From assembly GCA_965279525.1 (NCBI GenBank), contig CBDIIB010000004.1, positions 544,001 through 608,000 of the forward strand: DNA of 64,000 nt, in the 5' to 3' direction. The first letter of the stretch is position 1, and each line of letters begins with the position of its first letter. The DNA is from Tagaea sp. Its GTDB lineage: Bacteria > Pseudomonadota > Alphaproteobacteria > CACIAM-22H2. Position numbers and translations under genes: made by a program. Of the stretch, positions 4,422 to 17,122 are shown one piece after another. The notes under the pieces were generated by a model, which worked only from the letters and a program-made list of their open reading frames with translations, was not told where the DNA came from and did no database searches.

Positions 4422-5072
4422 TCAATAGTCCTGCGACTCGCGGGTGATCCGGCGGATCTCGCGCTGGACCATCCGCTCGACGAGATCGGGCAGATACTGG
4501 TCGAGCCACGCCTTCAGGATCGGACGCAGTTCGGCGCGGACGAGATCCTCGATCGTGAGATCCGAGTTTCCGAGCAGCAGGTTACGCGGCACGCGGGCCT
4601 GGAGACCCTGCAACGCGTCGGAAGCCTGACGCGCCGTGTCGTCGGACATCAGGCGCCGCGGCTCCTCGGCCATGATCGGCGGCGGCTTGTCCACCACGTT
4701 GGTGAGCTCGAGAACGTCGTCCATCTCCGGTTCCGGCATGGGCATGCGCGGACGCGGCGGCGGAGGGGGCGGCGGCGGCGGGGGTGGTGGAGGCGGCGGA
4801 GGCGCCTCCATCATCATCGGCTCGGGTTCAGGCTCCGGTTCAGGCTCCGGCTCCGCCATAGGTGGCGGTGGCGGCGGAGGTGCTGCAGCAGGCGGAGGCG
4901 GCGGGGGTGGCGGCGGAGGGGGTGGTGGCGGAGGAGGCGGGGGTGCTGCTTCGGCGGCGGCAGGCGCCGCTGGCGGCGCCTTACCGGCGTCTCCATCTTC
5001 CGAAATAATTCGACGGATGGAGGCGAGGATCTCCTCCATCGACGGTTCTTGTTGGTTCTTTGGGTCCGTCAT
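4422..5072 (-). CDS. popZ: Pole-organizing protein PopZ (DUF2497)
   Basis: N-terminal EPSMEEILASIRRIISED; Pro/Glu-rich linker; C-terminal TIEDLVRAELRPILKAWLDQYLPDLVERMVQREI; valS-popZ-tolC-pcm context. Confidence 0.93.
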   Translation of the reverse strand: MTDPKNQQEPSMEEILASIRRIISEDGDAGKAPPAAPAAAEAAPPPPPPPPPPPPPPPPPPAAAPPPPPPPMAEPEPEPEPEPEPMMMEAPPPPPPPPPPPPPPPPRPRMPMPEPEMDDVLELTNVVDKPPPIMAEEPRRLMSDDTARQASDALQGLQARVPRNLLLGNSDLTIEDLVRAELRPILKAWLDQYLPDLVERMVQREIRRITRESQDY

Positions 5073-5081
5073 CGTCGTGCT

Positions 5082-5089
5082 TTAACCAT
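5082..5089. promoter_or_regulatory. Possible CtrA half-site (TTAACCAT) upstream of popZ
   Basis: Exact TTAACCAT octamer 10 bp upstream of the popZ start codon. Confidence 0.35.
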
Positions 5090-5162
5090 TCCAAGTCCAG
5101 AGCTTAGGCGACGAATCGCTGTCACGCCAGAGATATCCGCCAAGGCAGTCGCTCATCCTACC

Positions 5163-9618: not shown

Positions 9619-11160
9619 ATGAATACGGATTCTCCTTACGATCTTCTCGTCATCGGTGGCGGCGTCAACGGCTGCGGCATCGCGCGCGATGCCGCAGGCC
9701 GCGGCCTTTCGGTCCTGCTTGTCGAACAGAACGACCTTGCCTCGGCGACGTCATCTGCTTCGACCAAGCTGATCCATGGCGGGCTTCGCTATCTCGAGTT
9801 CTACGAGTTCCGGCTGGTCCGCGAGGCGCTGTCCGAGCGTGACGTGCTGCTCGACGGGGCGCCGCACATCATGTGGCCGATGCGCTTCGTGCTGCCGTAC
9901 GATCGAAGCCAGCGCCCGGCCTGGATGATCCGCGCGGGCCTTTTCCTCTACGACCATCTCGGCTGGGTTCCGGGCCGGAAATCGAAACTGCCGGGCTCGC
10001 ACAAGGTCGATCTGCCCGGAAACCCGTATGGCCGGGGATTGCGCGCCGATATCGGCGTCGGCTTCGTCTATTCGGACGGTTGGGTCGACGATGCGCGTCT
10101 GGTCGCGCTGGCGGCGCGCCATGCCGCGGATCTCGGCGCGGACATTCGCGTACGCACGCAGGCGACGTCGGCCAGGCGCGAAGGCGGCCTCTGGCATGTG
10201 TCGCTCTCGGACCGCATTTCGGGACAGACGGCCGAGGTCAAGGCGCATGCGGTCGTGAATGCCGCAGGGCCCTGGGTCATGCAGACGCTGTCCGGCATCC
10301 TCGGCGCCAATGCGCCGGCGTCGGTCAAGCTGGTCAAGGGCAGCCACATTGTCGTTCCGCGCCAGTACGAGGGCGAGCACGCTTTCATCCTGCAGAACGA
10401 AGACCGGCGCATCGTCTTCGTCATTCCCTACCAGGGGCAGTTCACGCTGATCGGCACGACCGAGGTGGCGCATGACGGCGATCCTGGCCGCGTCTCGATC
10501 ACGTCGGCCGAGACGGAATATCTTTGCACGGCCGTCAGCCGGTTTCTTGCAAAGCCCGTTTCGCCGTCCGATGTCGTGTGGAGCTATTCGGGCGTGCGGC
10601 CGCTCTACGATGACGGCGCCGACAATGCGACCGCGACGACGCGCGACTATGTGCTGTCGCTCGATGACGGCGGCGGCCGTGCGCCGGCGCTGTCGATCTT
10701 CGGCGGCAAGATCACGACGTTCCGCAGACTTGCCGAGCACGCGCTGGAAAAACTTGCCCCGTTCTTCCCGAAGATGAAGCCTGCCTGGACCGCCGGCGCG
10801 CGTCTGCCCGGGGGCGAACTTGACGGTGTCGACGGCAATTTCGAGCGTTTCACCGGCGCGCTGGCCGCACGGTTTCCGTTCGTGCCGCCCGAACATCTTC
10901 ATGCGATGGCACGTCGACAGGGCGGCCGCGTGTTCCGCTTTCTCGAAGGGAAGTCAAAACTCGAAGATCTCGGTGCGCATTTCGGCGCAGGTTTGTATGC
11001 CGCCGAAGTCGATCTCATGGTTGGCGAGGAATGGGCGCGGACGGCGAACGACATCCTGTTCCGCCGCTCGAAGCTGGGCCTGCATATCGGACTGGCGGAC
11101 CAGGCCGCACTCGGGAGCTATCTCGCCGACAAGCACGGTCTGGGACGTGTCCTGGCCTGA
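9619..11160 (+). CDS. glpD: Aerobic glycerol-3-phosphate dehydrogenase
   Basis: VIGGGVNGCGIARDAAGRG, TSSASTKLIHGGLRYLE, GVRPLYDD, GGKITTFR. Confidence 0.96.
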   Translation: MNTDSPYDLLVIGGGVNGCGIARDAAGRGLSVLLVEQNDLASATSSASTKLIHGGLRYLEFYEFRLVREALSERDVLLDGAPHIMWPMRFVLPYDRSQRPAWMIRAGLFLYDHLGWVPGRKSKLPGSHKVDLPGNPYGRGLRADIGVGFVYSDGWVDDARLVALAARHAADLGADIRVRTQATSARREGGLWHVSLSDRISGQTAEVKAHAVVNAAGPWVMQTLSGILGANAPASVKLVKGSHIVVPRQYEGEHAFILQNEDRRIVFVIPYQGQFTLIGTTEVAHDGDPGRVSITSAETEYLCTAVSRFLAKPVSPSDVVWSYSGVRPLYDDGADNATATTRDYVLSLDDGGGRAPALSIFGGKITTFRRLAEHALEKLAPFFPKMKPAWTAGARLPGGELDGVDGNFERFTGALAARFPFVPPEHLHAMARRQGGRVFRFLEGKSKLEDLGAHFGAGLYAAEVDLMVGEEWARTANDILFRRSKLGLHIGLADQAALGSYLADKHGLGRVLA

Positions 11161-11182
11161 AAAATAGAAGTCAGTCTGAAAA

Positions 11183-11212
11183 TGCAAAAGGCCACGTCCA
11201 TTCGACGTGGCC
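11183..11212 (-). terminator. Intrinsic terminator oriented for the minus-strand microprotein gene (may also serve glpD)
   Basis: GGCCACGTC-5 nt loop-GACGTGGCC stem (11190-11212) followed by TTTGCATTTT on the minus strand. Confidence 0.7.
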
Positions 11213-11235
11213 CTGATTTCCGGTCGTTCCGGAAT

Positions 11236-11379
11236 TCAGTGCTTTGTGTGCGGCAGCAGCCCGTCTTCGACCAGGATCTTCTTGAGGCTGGCGAGCACTT
11301 CGGCGATGTCCGGCGTATCGGACTTCGTGCTGCTGCCCTTGCGGCGGCTGGTCGGGAGCGATGCAATCTTGCGGGGCAT
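11236..11379 (-). CDS. 47-aa microprotein containing a PopZ N-terminal-helix-like motif
   Basis: MPRKIASLPTSRRKGSSTKSDTPDIAEVLASLKKILVEDGLLPHTKH; codons strongly G/C-ending like host genes; own promoter-like and terminator signals. Confidence 0.7.
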   Translation of the reverse strand: MPRKIASLPTSRRKGSSTKSDTPDIAEVLASLKKILVEDGLLPHTKH

Positions 11380-11423
11380 GATTTTCACGTGCTTCCGGGG
11401 TTTGTCTTGTAGTCTGATAACTG

Positions 11424-11452
11424 AATATCGCATTCGGCTTTGCAAATTGCAA
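11424..11452 (-). promoter_or_regulatory. Putative sigma70 promoter of the microprotein gene
   Basis: Minus-strand TTGCAA-N17-GATATT; -35 overlapped by an AATTG-N6-CAATT inverted repeat (11445-11460). Confidence 0.45.
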
Positions 11453-11483
11453 GATCAATTTTTCTAATGGTAGAGACGATCGC

Positions 11484-11539
11484 TTGACGCGTATCCTACA
11501 AAAATATAGAACAAACCGAGAATTGAACAAAAGACGAAC
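11484..11539 (+). promoter_or_regulatory. imuA promoter with tandem alphaproteobacterial LexA (SOS) boxes
   Basis: TTGACG -35 at 11484; GAAC-N7-GAAT (11509-11523) and perfect GAAC-N7-GAAC (11525-11539) over the -10/+1 region. Confidence 0.85.
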
Positions 11540-11554
11540 GCCAAGGAGCCGCCA

Positions 11555-12472
11555 ATGTTCGAAGCGACTTTCTCGCCCCCGCCGATCGATGGTTTCTTTC
11601 CGGAACATATCGTGCACGAAAGCTTTGCGCGAATGCCGCGGCTTGGTCTTGCCAGCCTGCCGAGCCGGAACCAGTCGAGCTTCGGAAAGATCCGCAACCC
11701 CTTGATCAGAAGCACCATGGCAACCCAATCCGGCATCCTGCGTCGCCCCGCCTCGACCACGGTCCAGGAACTGAAGGCCCGTCTGGCGGCTTTCGGCGAA
11801 CGCGTGCCGCCCGGCCGCGGTCCGCTTGCCTTCGGGATCCCGGCGATCGACACGGCCCTGCCTTGGTCGGGCCTGCCACGCGGCGCACTGCACGAGATCG
11901 CCGGCGCTTCGAACGACGGGGCCGCCGCGGGCTTCGCGACCGCCCTGCTCGCCCGGCTCGCCGGCGACGGCCCGGTGCTGTGGATCGCGCGCCGCCCCGA
12001 TCTGAGTGCGGCCGGTCTCGCGGCACTCGGGCTTGAGCCTGCGCGCCTGCTCATCGTCAATGCGCCCAAGCGCGCCGATGCGCTGTGGGCTTTCGAAGAA
12101 GCGCTGCGCAACCCCGCACTTGCCGGAGCGGTCGCCGAAATCGACGGCGTCGATCTCACGCAGTCGCGCCGCCTGCAGCTTGCCGCCGAGATGGGTGGCA
12201 CGACGGCCCTGCTGCTGCGCCCGCCGGGCGAACTCGACCAGGCGAGTGCCGCGCGCACGCGCTGGCGTGCCGCCGCCCTTCCCGCCGACGCCACGGATGG
12301 CGAGAGCCGCCGCTGGCGCCTGACGCTCGCGCGCGCGCAAGGCGGCACGCCGGGCGAATGGAACATCGAACACCGTCGCGACGGATGGACACTTGCCGAT
12401 GACGAGCGGCCGGCGATTTCTCTCGATCTTCCTGCCGCATCTGCCGACCGACCGGTGCGCGCGGCAGGCTGA
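11555..12472 (+). CDS. imuA: ImuA RecA-like mutagenesis accessory protein (alternative start 11717)
   Basis: FGIPAIDTALP..GLPRGALHE, DALWAFEEALR, SRRLQLAAE, SAARTRW; AAGGAG before ATG 11555. Confidence 0.9.
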   Translation: MFEATFSPPPIDGFFPEHIVHESFARMPRLGLASLPSRNQSSFGKIRNPLIRSTMATQSGILRRPASTTVQELKARLAAFGERVPPGRGPLAFGIPAIDTALPWSGLPRGALHEIAGASNDGAAAGFATALLARLAGDGPVLWIARRPDLSAAGLAALGLEPARLLIVNAPKRADALWAFEEALRNPALAGAVAEIDGVDLTQSRRLQLAAEMGGTTALLLRPPGELDQASAARTRWRAAALPADATDGESRRWRLTLARAQGGTPGEWNIEHRRDGWTLADDERPAISLDLPAASADRPVRAAG

Positions 12473-13969
12473 CGACGCGATCGATCCGGTCGCGCGCGCG
12501 ACATTCGCGTCCGTCCAGGGCGGCCTGCAGCTTGCCGCCGTGTGCCCGCGTGCCAAAGATGCGGGCCTGCGGCCCGGGCTGGCATTGGCGGAAGCGCATG
12601 CGCGGGTTCCGGACCTGCGCGTCGAACGCCACGCGCCGGAAGCCGACCGCGCCTTGCTGCGCCGGCTCGCCGAATCGGCGCAGCGCTGGTCGCCTTGCGT
12701 GGCGATCGAAGACGACACCAGCGGCCTGCGCCTCGATGCCAGCGGTGTCGCCCATCTGTTCGGCGGCGAGGAAGCGCTGCTCGCGGACGTCGCCACGCGG
12801 CTGAAGCACCAGGGTCTCGTCGTGCGGGCCTGTCTTGCCGACACGCTGGGGGCGGCATGGGCCGGCGCGCGTTTCGCGCCGACGGCCGTGTCGATTTTCG
12901 CGTCAAGCACGACACGCGAGGCGATCGCCGGCCTGCCGGTCGCAGGCCTGCGCCTTGCGGTCGAGGATCTTGCAAACCTCGACCGGCTCGGCCTGCGGCG
13001 GATCGGCGATCTCCATGCGCTGGCCGATGCCGCCGGAGGCCGTGCCGCCCTCGCCCGGCGCTTCGGCCCGACGATCGCGCGCCGGCTGCTCCAGGCTCTG
13101 GGCGCCGAAGCCGAGCCACTCTCCCCGGATGCACCACCGCCGGCCTTGCGGTCACGGCTTTCTTTCGCCGAACCGATCACGGCTCCTGCCGACATCGAAC
13201 GCACGCTTGAACGGCTTGCCCGCGAATTGTGCGCGCGGCTGGAAAGTGCGGCTCTCGGTGCGCGACGGGTGGCGCTCGTCTTCCATCGCGTCGATGGCGT
13301 TGCGACACGCATGGCGCTCGGCACCAGCCGGCCGACGCGCGATGCGCACGCACTATGCCGGCTGTTCGCCGAACCGATCCAGCGCATCGATCCCGGTTTC
13401 GGCTTCGAACTCGCAACGCTCGACGCCGAACTCGTCGATACGCTCGATCCCGAGCAGCAGCGCTTTGCCCGCTCGCTGCTGCCCGACGGCGATTGCGCGG
13501 CAGCCGAACTCGCCAAGGCGCCGCTGATGGCCCCGCTCGTCGACCGGCTCGCCAACCGGCTGGGGGCCGCGAACGTGGTGCGGCTGGCGCATGTCGAAAG
13601 CCATGTGCCCGAGCGCGCGCAGGCTTTCGTCGCACCGTTTGCCCCGCTGCCCGCGTTGTTGCGCGGCGCGCGGGCACCGGCTTCCCCGCGCCCGCTGCGC
13701 CTGTTCGTGCATCCCGAGCCGATCGACGTCGCGGCCGAACTGCCCGATGCGCCGCCGCTGCTGTTCCGCTGGCGCCGGCTCGTCCACCATGTCGCCGCCG
13801 CCGCCGGCCCCGAGCGCATCGGCACCGAATGGTGGCGCAAGCGCGGCGAACCTCGCGACTATTACCGGCTCGAGGATCGCGACGGGCGGCGCTTCTGGGT
13901 TTTCCGCGAAGGGCTGTGGACGCCCGGGCGCGCACAGCCGCCGCGCTGGTACCTGCACGGGCTGTTCGC

Positions 13970-13973
<4 letters not shown>
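12399..13973 (+). CDS. imuB: ImuB inactive Y-family polymerase
   Basis: LDASGVAHLFGGEEALL, IDPGFGF, SHVPER, RPLRLF, GPERIGTEWW, RDYYRLED, WYLHGLFA. Confidence 0.93.

Positions 13974-17122
<3,149 letters not shown>

What the first reader, a model, noticed from the sequence alone, without database searches (positions are those of the whole stretch)
11236..11379. Microprotein carrying a copy of PopZ's client-binding helix: candidate PopZ decoy
Seen in sequence: the 47-aa minus-strand ORF contains PDIAEVLASLKKILVEDG (11260-11313). This aligns without gaps to PopZ residues 10-27 in this same window, PSMEEILASIRRIISEDG (4992-5045), with 9/18 identical and 6 more conservative (M/I, I/V, I/L, R/K, R/K, I/L). 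The ORF has host-like G/C-ending codons, a promoter-like TTGCAA-N17-GATATT and its own terminator, so it looks like a real gene. It has a basic N-terminal tail and none of PopZ's C-terminal self-assembly helices. Established: in Caulobacter this N-terminal helix is the hub through which PopZ binds clients such as ParB, ChpT and RcdA. The residues known to matter (E12, I13, I17, R19) correspond here to E, V, L and K. Inference: a soluble, non-condensing helix could titrate clients away from the polar PopZ condensate. I know of no described protein of this kind.
Basis: partly seen in the sequence, partly recalled or inferred. Interest (0 to 1): 0.85.

Follow-up and report, generated by a model that had tools for sequence, protein, structure and literature searches.

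The report
Genus-specific microprotein with PopZ-like helix
A real, conserved and apparently transcribed 47-residue protein gene found only in the genus Tagaea carries one helix that resembles the client-binding helix of the cell-pole organiser PopZ, but whether it acts on PopZ or its partners is unproven.

Summary
Window 11236-11379 (-) encodes a 47-aa protein whose residues 23-40 align without gaps to PopZ residues 10-27 (9/18 identical, 15/18 positive).

It is a real gene:
- It is present in the window's genome and in 19 of 20 other same-genus (Tagaea) genomes. It was found in 0 of 20 genomes outside the genus.
- It always lies divergent from imuA-imuB-dnaE2.
- Residues 23-47 have dN/dS 0.02.
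- It has its own terminator.
- Short contigs cover it in 4 of 4 RNA libraries laid. All 5 variants inside the reading frame are synonymous.

Anatomy: a basic disordered tail, one amphipathic helix (AF2), then EDGLLPxxKH ending in an invariant C-terminal His.

The PopZ likeness is family-wide, in register, and the best non-self match in the genome. Statistically it is borderline: HMMER E 1.2-5, hhalign 91%.

The two charged positions whose mutation abolishes ParAB/client binding in Caulobacter PopZ are not conserved in the family. Client recruitment by PopZ also depends on condensate avidity. A general client-decoy role is therefore doubtful.

Best guess (about 0.3): a short-lived H1-like peptide that acts on the PopZ system through its hydrophobic face.

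The parts
11236..11379 (-). Coding sequence of the 47-aa microprotein (stop codon at 11236-11238)
   Evidence: Orthologues in the window's genome plus 19 of 20 same-genus genomes. The ATG at 11379 is the only start shared by all 9 close relatives. dN/dS is 0.18 over the whole ORF and 0.02 over residues 23-47 in clade A.
11314..11379 (-). Basic, disordered N-terminal tail (residues 1-22); K4 is invariant
   Evidence: Net charge +5 and pI 11.7. pLDDT 56-61. dN/dS 0.43 in clade A. K4 is invariant in alignment A1.
11260..11313 (-). PopZ-H1-like amphipathic helix with a Pro N-cap and an E-D-G C-cap (residues 23-40)
   Evidence: BLASTP 9/18 identical. hhalign 91.4% over 20 columns. AF2 helix at residues 25-38 with block-mean pLDDT 88-95. 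P23, L29, K33, L36 and E38 are invariant.
11239..11259 (-). Conserved C-terminal tail LLPxxKH ending in an invariant His (residues 41-47)
   Evidence: P43 and H47 are invariant and L41/L42 at least 90% conserved in 20 sequences. Non-helical in the AF2 model.
11188..11214 (-). Intrinsic terminator hairpin followed by a T-run
11440..11452 (-). Palindrome TTGCA-N3-TGCAA, invariant in the genus, overlapping the putative -35 (TTGCAA at 11452-11447); likely promoter/operator
   Evidence: Invariant TTGCA and TGCA blocks in the alignment of 20 upstream regions. 6 exact copies in the genome against 1.2 expected.
11424..11429 (-). Putative -10 hexamer GATATT, 17 nt after the -35
   Evidence: Read from the sequence. 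Below the threshold of the sigma-70 scan.
11509..11539 (+). Context, not part of the gene: tandem LexA-type boxes (GAAC-N7-GAAT, GAAC-N7-GAAC) of the divergent imuA promoter
   Evidence: ATTC-N7-GTTC in 20 of 20 loci, 130-220 nt upstream of the microprotein start codon. imuA -35 CTTGAC at 11483-11488.
4992..5045 (-). PopZ helix H1 (residues 10-27), the sequence that the microprotein resembles; popZ itself is 4422-5072 (-)
   Evidence: H1 is identical in every Tagaea genome in which a PopZ N-terminus was recovered (loci L037-L055 and L057).

Best explanation
SHOWN. Window 11236-11379 (-) is a genuine gene under strong purifying selection, present in RNA libraries, for a 47-aa protein. The family is 47-54 aa and restricted to the genus Tagaea. 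The gene sits between glpD and the divergent SOS cassette imuA-imuB-dnaE2. The protein has a Lys/Arg-rich disordered tail, one 14-16-residue amphipathic helix, and a tail EDGLLPxxKH with an invariant C-terminal His. The helix shares register, Pro N-cap, hydrophobic stripe, one basic residue and E-D-G cap with PopZ helix H1. PopZ H1 is its best match in the whole genome.

INFERRED (about 0.3 for this whole mechanism). The protein is a monovalent, non-assembling copy or mimic of H1 that acts on the PopZ polar hub. What is conserved is the hydrophobic face plus K33 and the cap. The polar-face charges needed for ParA/ParB are not conserved. I therefore favour docking through the hydrophobic face onto what H1 contacts in that way. 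That means PopZ's own oligomerisation domain (the H1-OD contact that restrains condensation) or hydrophobic-face clients. I do not favour general titration of ParAB. The basic tail would help it enter the very acidic PopZ matrix.

The invariant terminal His suggests that it is kept scarce by Lon, as in terminal-His degrons, so that it acts as a pulse. Its expression is probably set by a dimeric regulator at the conserved TTGCA-N3-TGCAA palindrome over its -35.
For: Real gene:
- Found in the window's genome plus 19 of 20 same-genus genomes.
- 57 database proteins of 46-81 aa, all unnamed.
- Core dN/dS 0.02 at pS 0.42.
- Terminator.
- RNA-library contigs over the ORF in 4 of 4 runs from 4 studies, with 5 of 5 in-ORF variants at third codon positions.

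Helix: AF2 places a helix at residues 25-38 with block-mean pLDDT 88-95.

Likeness to H1:
- hhalign 91.4%, P 9e-7; 0 of 300 shuffles reach the score.
- Each clade alone aligns in the same register: 91%, 69%, 72%.
- Clade consensus sequences are 9, 8 and 8 of 18 identical to H1. The inferred central node is 9 of 18 identical and 15 of 18 same-class.
- PopZ is the first non-self hit among 76,676 ORFs, and among the 400 best candidates re-scored by hhalign (30.1 against the next at 25.1).
- popZ lies 6 kb away in this genome.

From papers:
- H1 binds the oligomerisation domain and restrains condensation (PMC12999525, section 15, read).
- A terminal His is the main determinant of a widespread Lon degron class (PMC11986505, passages; PMC10665427, passages).
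Against: - The likeness is not significant genome-wide by HMMER (E 1.2 and 5.1).
- With a PopZ N-terminal HMM, only clade A reaches about 10 bits. The other 11 sequences score -1.1 to 3.4 bits.
- Real helices elsewhere in the genome reach hhalign scores of 20-25.
- A PDB-wide search with the family profile did not return Caulobacter PopZ (3 hits at E up to 10, none PopZ).
- No intermediates link the family to PopZ among 1.84 billion representatives (6 hits, all the family itself).
- The positions equivalent to E12, R19 and S22 of the binding-dead KEP mutant vary.
- The two residues before the terminal His (T-K, Y-K, H-K, N-W) do not fit the published x-hydrophobic-hydrophobic-H degron.
- Strict linkage to imuA points elsewhere.
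- No binding, localisation or phenotype data exist.
Confidence: 0.3

Rival explanations
1. Catch-all rival: the PopZ likeness is chance or generic convergence between amphipathic helices. The microprotein docks on an unrelated partner, for example a ParA/MinD-type ATPase, a nucleic acid via the basic tail, or another regulator.
For: HMMER E-values of 1.2-5 mean that about one such hit is expected per genome. Other real helices score 20-25 in hhalign, against 30 for PopZ. The PDB search did not retrieve PopZ. The family has its own conserved features absent from PopZ: K4, LLP, terminal K/W-H.
Against: The top hit falls on a 20-residue functional motif 6 kb away. It is in the same register in three diverged clades, and conserved positions coincide: P, the hydrophobic stripe, one basic residue and E-D.
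Confidence: 0.4
2. One reading: a soluble decoy that titrates PopZ clients (ParB, ParA, ChpT, RcdA, CpdR) away from the polar condensate.
For: H1 is the client-binding element (passages in PMC9926476, PMC9512792, PMC11519897). In the window's clade the residues at the E12, I13, I17 and R19 positions are E, V, L and K. ChpT and ParB homologues exist in the genome.
Against: The E12- and R19-equivalent positions are D/E/G/M/V and D/E/K across the family. Clade C has E at the R19 position, whereas E12K/R19E/S22P abolishes ParAB and client binding (PMC5182065 passage). ChpT did not bind dispersed PopZ and needed the condensate (PMC12999525, section 15), so a monovalent competitor needs a large molar excess.
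Confidence: 0.12
3. A stress-induced protein aimed at Lon, analogous to LarA: a small protein whose C-terminal helix plus short His-terminated tail engages Lon as a substrate or activator.
For: The terminal His is invariant in 20 of 20 sequences. The helix-then-short-unstructured-tail layout matches that described for LarA (PMC10665427, passages). The promoter reads CTTGCA-N17-CGATAT, the same spacing as CTTGAT-N17-CCATAT upstream of the genome's HSP20-DUF1150 operon.
Against: It is not homologous to the genome's DUF1150 protein (hhalign 1.1%; no Pfam hit). The residues before the His are not the two hydrophobics of the published degron. The loose promoter pattern occurs 63 times in the genome, so it is not specific.
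Confidence: 0.1
4. An accessory or regulator of the ImuA-ImuB-DnaE2 mutasome or of the SOS response, co-controlled from the shared divergent promoter region.
For: It lies divergent from imuA in 36 of 36 loci examined (overlapping sets). Adjacency is kept in clade C, although another gene was inserted on the glpD side. LexA-type boxes are present in all 20 intergenic regions.
Against: The LexA boxes lie 57-87 nt upstream of its -35 in the window, beyond the imuA promoter. imuAB in 4 of 4 sister genera has no such ORF nearby. Gene order within one genus is weak evidence of a functional link.
Confidence: 0.08

Closest known systems
PopZ N-terminal helix H1 (client-binding MoRF of the alphaproteobacterial pole-organising protein)
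   Same: A Pro-capped amphipathic helix with the same hydrophobic stripe, a basic residue at the R18-equivalent position and an E-D(-G) cap. 9/18 identical and 15/18 similar. Flanked by disorder.
   Different: No acidic Pro-rich linker and no DUF2497 oligomerisation domain. The acidic pair and the second Arg of H1 are not conserved. It has a basic tail and an LLPxxKH-COOH tail of its own. It evolves much faster than H1, which is invariant in the genus.
Eukaryotic microProteins (small single-domain proteins that regulate the larger proteins they relate to; PMC7534434, abstract only)
   Same: A small protein that keeps one interaction element of a larger multidomain protein and lacks the rest.
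   Different: That class is known in plants and animals and acts by forming non-productive dimers. Here descent from PopZ and any binding are unproven.
LarA (Caulobacter heat-shock protein, allosteric Lon activator; PMC10665427, passages)
   Same: A small alphaproteobacterial protein with a C-terminal helix followed by a short unstructured tail ending in His.
   Different: No sequence relationship to the DUF1150 protein downstream of HSP20 in this genome. I recall, but did not check, that LarA belongs to DUF1150. The hydrophobic residues before the His are missing.
Terminal-His C-degrons of Lon substrates (SulA Sul20C and the x-L/I-L/I/V-H class; PMC11986505, passages)
   Same: Invariant C-terminal His.
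   Different: The penultimate residues are K or W and the antepenultimate are T, Y, H or N, not two aliphatic residues.

Membership tests
PopZ family (NCBIfam NF052660 / Pfam PF10691 DUF2497) | C-terminal DUF2497 self-assembly domain | tested here: not met
   Pfam and NCBIfam return 0 families for the 47-aa protein at E up to 10. The protein ends 7 residues after the helix cap.
PopZ family (NCBIfam NF052660 / Pfam PF10691 DUF2497) | Conserved N-terminal helix H1 motif | tested here: inconclusive
   hhalign 91.4% and best non-self hit in the genome. HMMER E is 1.2-5, and clades B and C score -1.1 to 3.4 bits with a PopZ N-terminal HMM.
PopZ family (NCBIfam NF052660 / Pfam PF10691 DUF2497) | Acidic, proline-rich disordered linker | tested here: not met
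   The only disordered part is basic, net +5.
H1-type client-binding helix (functional class) | Amphipathic helix flanked by disorder | tested here: met
   AF2 helix at residues 25-38 with the rest at low confidence. The hydrophobic positions 25, 28, 29, 32, 35 and 36 are conserved.
H1-type client-binding helix (functional class) | Charged residues equivalent to Caulobacter E12 and R19 (lost in the KEP mutant) | tested here: not met
   The family columns read D/E/G/M/V and D/E/K. E and K are present in the window's clade only. The KEP mutant is from a passage in PMC5182065.
H1-type client-binding helix (functional class) | Binds PopZ clients | not testable with these tools
   No client was tested in silico or otherwise.
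Terminal-His Lon C-degron (x-L/I-L/I/V-H) | Invariant C-terminal His | tested here: met
   H47 is invariant in 20 of 20 sequences.
Terminal-His Lon C-degron (x-L/I-L/I/V-H) | Two hydrophobic residues before the His | tested here: not met
   The tails end in T-K-H, Y-K-H, H-K-H or N-W-H.
Terminal-His Lon C-degron (x-L/I-L/I/V-H) | Lon-dependent degradation | not testable with these tools
   Needs an experiment.
LarA / DUF1150 (PF06620) | DUF1150 domain | tested here: not met
   No Pfam hit. hhalign 1.1% against the genome's DUF1150 protein.
LexA (SOS) regulon | LexA box overlapping the gene's own promoter | tested here: not met
   The GTTC-N7-GTTC type boxes lie at -130 to -160 from the start codon in the window, on the imuA side. 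None is found between -120 and the start.

The most novel reading that the evidence does not exclude
Tagaea evolved, probably by local duplication of the 5' end of popZ, a free-standing H1 helix. This helix acts in trans on the PopZ hub, either capping the oligomerisation domain to tune condensation or competing for hydrophobic-face clients. It would be held at low level through a His-terminated degron. This would be the first natural trans-acting peptide regulator of a bacterial condensate scaffold.
Probability: 0.25. Interest if true: 0.8.

Novelty: new variant of a known kind. Interest (0 to 1): 0.45.

Why it matters
PopZ is the model bacterial condensate scaffold. How its client-binding helix is regulated is an active question, including H1's newly described contact with the oligomerisation domain. 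A natural soluble H1-like peptide would give a ready-made probe and a new layer of control.

Even if the PopZ link fails, this is a clean example of a young, genus-restricted microprotein gene under strong selection. It has a conserved operator and a His terminus, and it is testable with simple assays.

Tried and rejected
- **Complex prediction**. The microprotein was folded against three copies of PopZ residues 113-216. Verdict: no answer (score 0.00, mark 0.32, controls not run). This is no evidence either way.
- **ESM Atlas**: no usable hit.
- **Rfam** on 11000-11700: 0 matches at E up to 1, so no known RNA family explains the locus.
- **PDB profile search**: 3 weak repeat-driven hits, none relevant.
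- **Stand-alone H1 proteins elsewhere**. A PopZ N-terminal profile against proteins of 22-70 aa gave 744 hits, of which the best 120 were listed. The 9 that I read are PopZ N-termini that run into out-of-frame-looking tails or are labelled partial. I found no general class of H1-only proteins. The microprotein family was not among the 120 listed.
- **Sigma-32 idea**. The loose pattern CTTGNN-N16-17-C[CG]AT[AT]T occurs 63 times in the genome, too unspecific to use.
- **Palindrome regulon**. There are 6 exact copies, one of them inside the 16S gene. The downstream genes (GH114, polysaccharide deacetylase, EamA, one unknown) give no clear theme.
- **De novo or duplication origin.** Nucleotide identity over the 54 nt is about half by eye, and synonymous sites are near saturation. 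I did not pursue this.
- **RNA runs.** Contigs show neither strand nor ends, and DNA may be present in the libraries. The X4 contig also crosses the intergenic region into imuA. I therefore count this as a hint of transcription, not proof.
- **Literature searches** for a described PopZ decoy, paralogue or microprotein. Four papers hold both 'PopZ' and 'decoy', and none is about such a protein by its title. These searches cover only the held library.
- **Not available.** Supplementary files were not consulted. The LarA alignment (Supplementary Fig. 5a of PMC10665427) could bear on the tail comparison.

Full report
**What is there.** The minus strand of window 11236-11379 encodes a 47-aa protein. 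PopZ lies 6 kb away at 4422-5072 (-). It is 216 aa, with Pfam DUF2497 at residues 140-211 and NCBIfam PopZ_fam at 108 bits, below the 125 cut-off. BLASTP aligns microprotein residues 23-40 with PopZ residues 10-27 without gaps: 9/18 identical, 15/18 positive, pairwise E 3e-5. GC3 is 0.85 in frame, against 0.57 and 0.49 out of frame. An 11-pair hairpin with a T-run follows the stop (11214-11188). The proposed TTGCAA-N17-GATATT promoter is present but matches only 8 of 12 consensus positions. The sigma-70 scan called nothing in 11050-11650.

**It is a real gene.**
- A six-frame search of 41 genomes found full-length matches in the window's genome and in 19 of 20 other genomes of the same genus, at E 5e-25 to 1.5e-3. 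The twentieth genome (74% complete) had only a weak match containing a stop, and it also lacks an imuA match. None of the 20 genomes outside the genus scored better than E 0.25.
- Record titles name the genus Tagaea in 8 of 16 loci from the species collection. The others carry vaguer or odd labels, and many are the same genomes as the handles.
- The 5.8-billion-protein collection holds 57 relatives of 46-81 aa, all without a Pfam domain and named only 'hypothetical protein'.
- A full HMMER pass over 1.84 billion representatives returned 6 clusters, all of this family. There are therefore no fused forms or distant relatives at E up to 0.001.
- The 20 sequences fall into three clades, A, B and C. 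K4, P23, L29, K33, L36, E38, P43 and H47 are invariant. I35, D39, G40, L41 and L42 are nearly invariant.
- In clade A (9 sequences) residues 23-47 have dN/dS 0.02 at pS 0.42, and the tail has dN/dS 0.43.
- Four RNA libraries from four studies were laid, and all four hold short contigs (158-384 nt) over the ORF: 11179-11372, 11229-11406, 11196-11472 and 11242-11399. The flanking genes are mostly uncovered. The 5 differences inside the ORF (11290, 11293, 11311, 11320, 11338) all fall at third codon positions and are synonymous by my reading of the codons. Contigs cannot show strand or ends, and DNA carry-over is possible, so this is a hint of transcription, not proof.
- No Rfam family matches the locus.

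**Context and control.**
- The gene is divergent from imuA in all 36 loci examined (20 from genome handles and 16 from named records, which overlap).
- imuA matches NCBIfam ImuA at 80 bits, below the cut-off. imuB is a Y-family polymerase homologue. The next gene is an error-prone DnaE2 at 1366 bits.
- glpD lies downstream. In clade C a dehydrogenase-like gene has been inserted on the glpD side, while the imuA adjacency is kept.
- An alignment of the 20 intergenic regions shows two invariant blocks. The first is a LexA-type box (ATTC-N7-GTTC, with a second GTTC-N7-GTTC in some loci) next to the imuA -35. In the window these boxes lie 130-160 nt upstream of the microprotein start codon, beyond imuA's promoter. 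The second is a palindrome, TTGCA-N3-TGCAA, that overlaps the microprotein's -35 (window 11452-11440).
- The gene is therefore probably not repressed directly by LexA. It probably has its own dimeric regulator.
- The exact palindrome occurs 6 times in the genome against 1.2 expected, once inside the 16S gene. The other downstream genes give no clear theme.
- In 4 of 4 sister genera imuAB is present without such an ORF nearby. The gene is young.

**Structure.** AF2 with the family alignment gives one helix at residues 25-38, with block-mean pLDDT 88-95. Everything else is disordered (mean pLDDT 75). The tail is basic: net +5 in clades A and C, and 0 to +2 in clade B.

**How PopZ-like is the helix?**

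In favour:
- Profile-profile comparison of the family with a 14-sequence PopZ N-terminal alignment gives 91.4% probability, P 9e-7, score 30.9 over 20 columns.
- 0 of 300 column shuffles reach that score (mean 7.8, sd 1.9, maximum 17.8). The reversed alignment scores 6.8.
- Each clade alone aligns in the same register: A 91%, B 69%, C 72%, B plus C 90%.
- Clade consensus sequences are 9, 8 and 8 of 18 identical to H1. The majority state at the centre of the tree is 9 of 18 identical and 15 of 18 same-class. The likeness is therefore ancestral and not a quirk of one clade.
- Conserved positions coincide: the Pro cap, the hydrophobic stripe, one basic residue and E-D.
- Among 76,676 six-frame ORFs of the genome, PopZ is the best non-self hit of the family HMM. 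When the 400 best candidates were re-scored by hhalign as single sequences, PopZ was again first, at 30.1 against 25.1 for the next.

Against:
- The HMMER E-values are 1.2 (family HMM to PopZ) and 5.1 (PopZ N-terminal HMM to the microprotein, rank 4 behind PopZ itself and two short exact-word matches of 7-8 residues). This is what chance gives about once per genome.
- With the sharply peaked PopZ HMM, clade A scores about 10 bits and the other 11 sequences score -1.1 to 3.4 bits.
- A PDB-wide profile search did not return Caulobacter PopZ.
- H1 itself is identical in every Tagaea genome in which a PopZ N-terminus was recovered, whereas the microprotein helix has diverged.

I put the chance that the likeness is biologically meaningful (common descent or mimicry) at a little under one half.

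**What it would do.** Papers state that H1 is PopZ's client-binding helix (passages in PMC9926476, PMC9512792, PMC11519897). They also state that the triple change E12K/R19E/S22P inactivates the sites for ParAB and other clients (passage in PMC5182065). Given the invariant motif, E, R and S fall at positions 12, 19 and 22 in only one register. That register maps these residues to microprotein residues 27, 34 and 37.

Across the family those columns read D/E/G/M/V, D/E/K and G/R/V. Clade C carries E at the R19 position. The conserved surface is therefore the hydrophobic face plus K33 and the cap, not the polar face used for ParAB.

A 2026 study (PMC12999525, section 15, read) reports two relevant results. 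H1 contacts PopZ's oligomerisation domain in the dilute phase and restrains condensation. ChpT did not detectably bind dispersed PopZ but was recruited strongly by condensates. Both results weaken a simple monovalent decoy. They make a trans-acting contact with the oligomerisation domain, or partitioning into the acidic matrix helped by the basic tail, at least as plausible. My one complex prediction gave no verdict and counts for nothing.

**The C-terminus.** The invariant terminal His recalls the terminal-His degrons of Lon substrates (SulA and the x-L/I-L/I/V-H class; passages in PMC11986505). It also recalls LarA, a small alphaproteobacterial Lon activator with a C-terminal helix and a short His-terminated tail (passages in PMC10665427). 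The genome has its own HSP20-DUF1150 pair whose small protein ends in His. The microprotein is unrelated to that protein (hhalign 1.1%). The residues before its His are not the two hydrophobics of the published motif. I treat Lon-dependent instability as a reasonable add-on, not as shown.

**Verdict.**
- The gene is real (about 0.95).
- The helix is the genome's nearest relative of PopZ H1, but on borderline statistics.
- The decoy mechanism as stated is possible for this clade but unlikely as the family's conserved function (about 0.12).
- My preferred specific mechanism is an H1-like peptide that acts on the PopZ system through its hydrophobic face and is probably short-lived. It stands at about 0.3. 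An unspecific 'other partner' reading stands at about 0.4.
- Nothing like a PopZ-mimicking microprotein turned up in the held literature, within the limits of those searches.

Noticed in passing
window 11483-17119 (+): A complete SOS mutagenesis cassette: imuA (11555-12472), imuB (12393-13973) and an error-prone DnaE2 (about 13970-17119, 1366 bits). Tandem LexA-type boxes at 11509-11539 sit just after a CTTGAC -35.
   Followed up: partly
window 11440-11452; G000 C2:126223, C3:17294, C4:813435, C5:1297703: The palindrome TTGCA-N3-TGCAA is invariant upstream of the microprotein in 20 loci. It recurs upstream of GH114, polysaccharide-deacetylase and EamA-transporter genes. There are 6 copies against 1.2 expected, one of them inside the 16S rRNA gene. 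The binding factor is unknown.
   Followed up: partly
window 5080-5095 (-), and loci L013, L015-L017: ATGGTTAA, the reverse complement of TTAACCAT, lies about 12 nt upstream of the popZ start. I recall TTAACCAT as a CtrA/SciP-type half-site. TTAACCAT lies about 15 nt upstream of the microprotein start in 4 of 6 clade C loci. This may be coincidence.
   Followed up: no
window 4422-5072 (-): Tagaea PopZ has unusually long pure poly-proline runs and (EP)n repeats in its linker. Their length varies between species, while H1 and the C-terminal domain are nearly invariant.
   Followed up: no
G000 C5:1784740-1785521 (locus L078 1300-2081): An HSP20 gene is followed by a 79-aa DUF1150 protein ending in ...GLEPVDAH. 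This is probably the LarA-type pair. A CTTGAT-N17-CCATAT promoter-like site lies upstream.
   Followed up: partly
proteins P0060-P0179: Public databases hold hundreds of 'PopZ' entries of 35-70 aa. The nine that I read are N-termini that run into out-of-frame-looking tails or are cut by contig ends. They are likely frameshift or assembly artefacts in the GC- and proline-rich linker.
   Followed up: partly
locus L031 4191-5036 (-): In clade C a dehydrogenase-like gene (its N-terminus looks like an NAD-binding GxGxxG motif) is inserted between glpD and the microprotein gene, convergent with the latter.
   Followed up: no
window 4422-4460 (-), PopZ residues 206-215: PopZ's own C-terminus (IRRITRESQD) weakly echoes the second half of H1 (IRRIISEDGD) in the HMM output. 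The score is far below significance.
   Followed up: no
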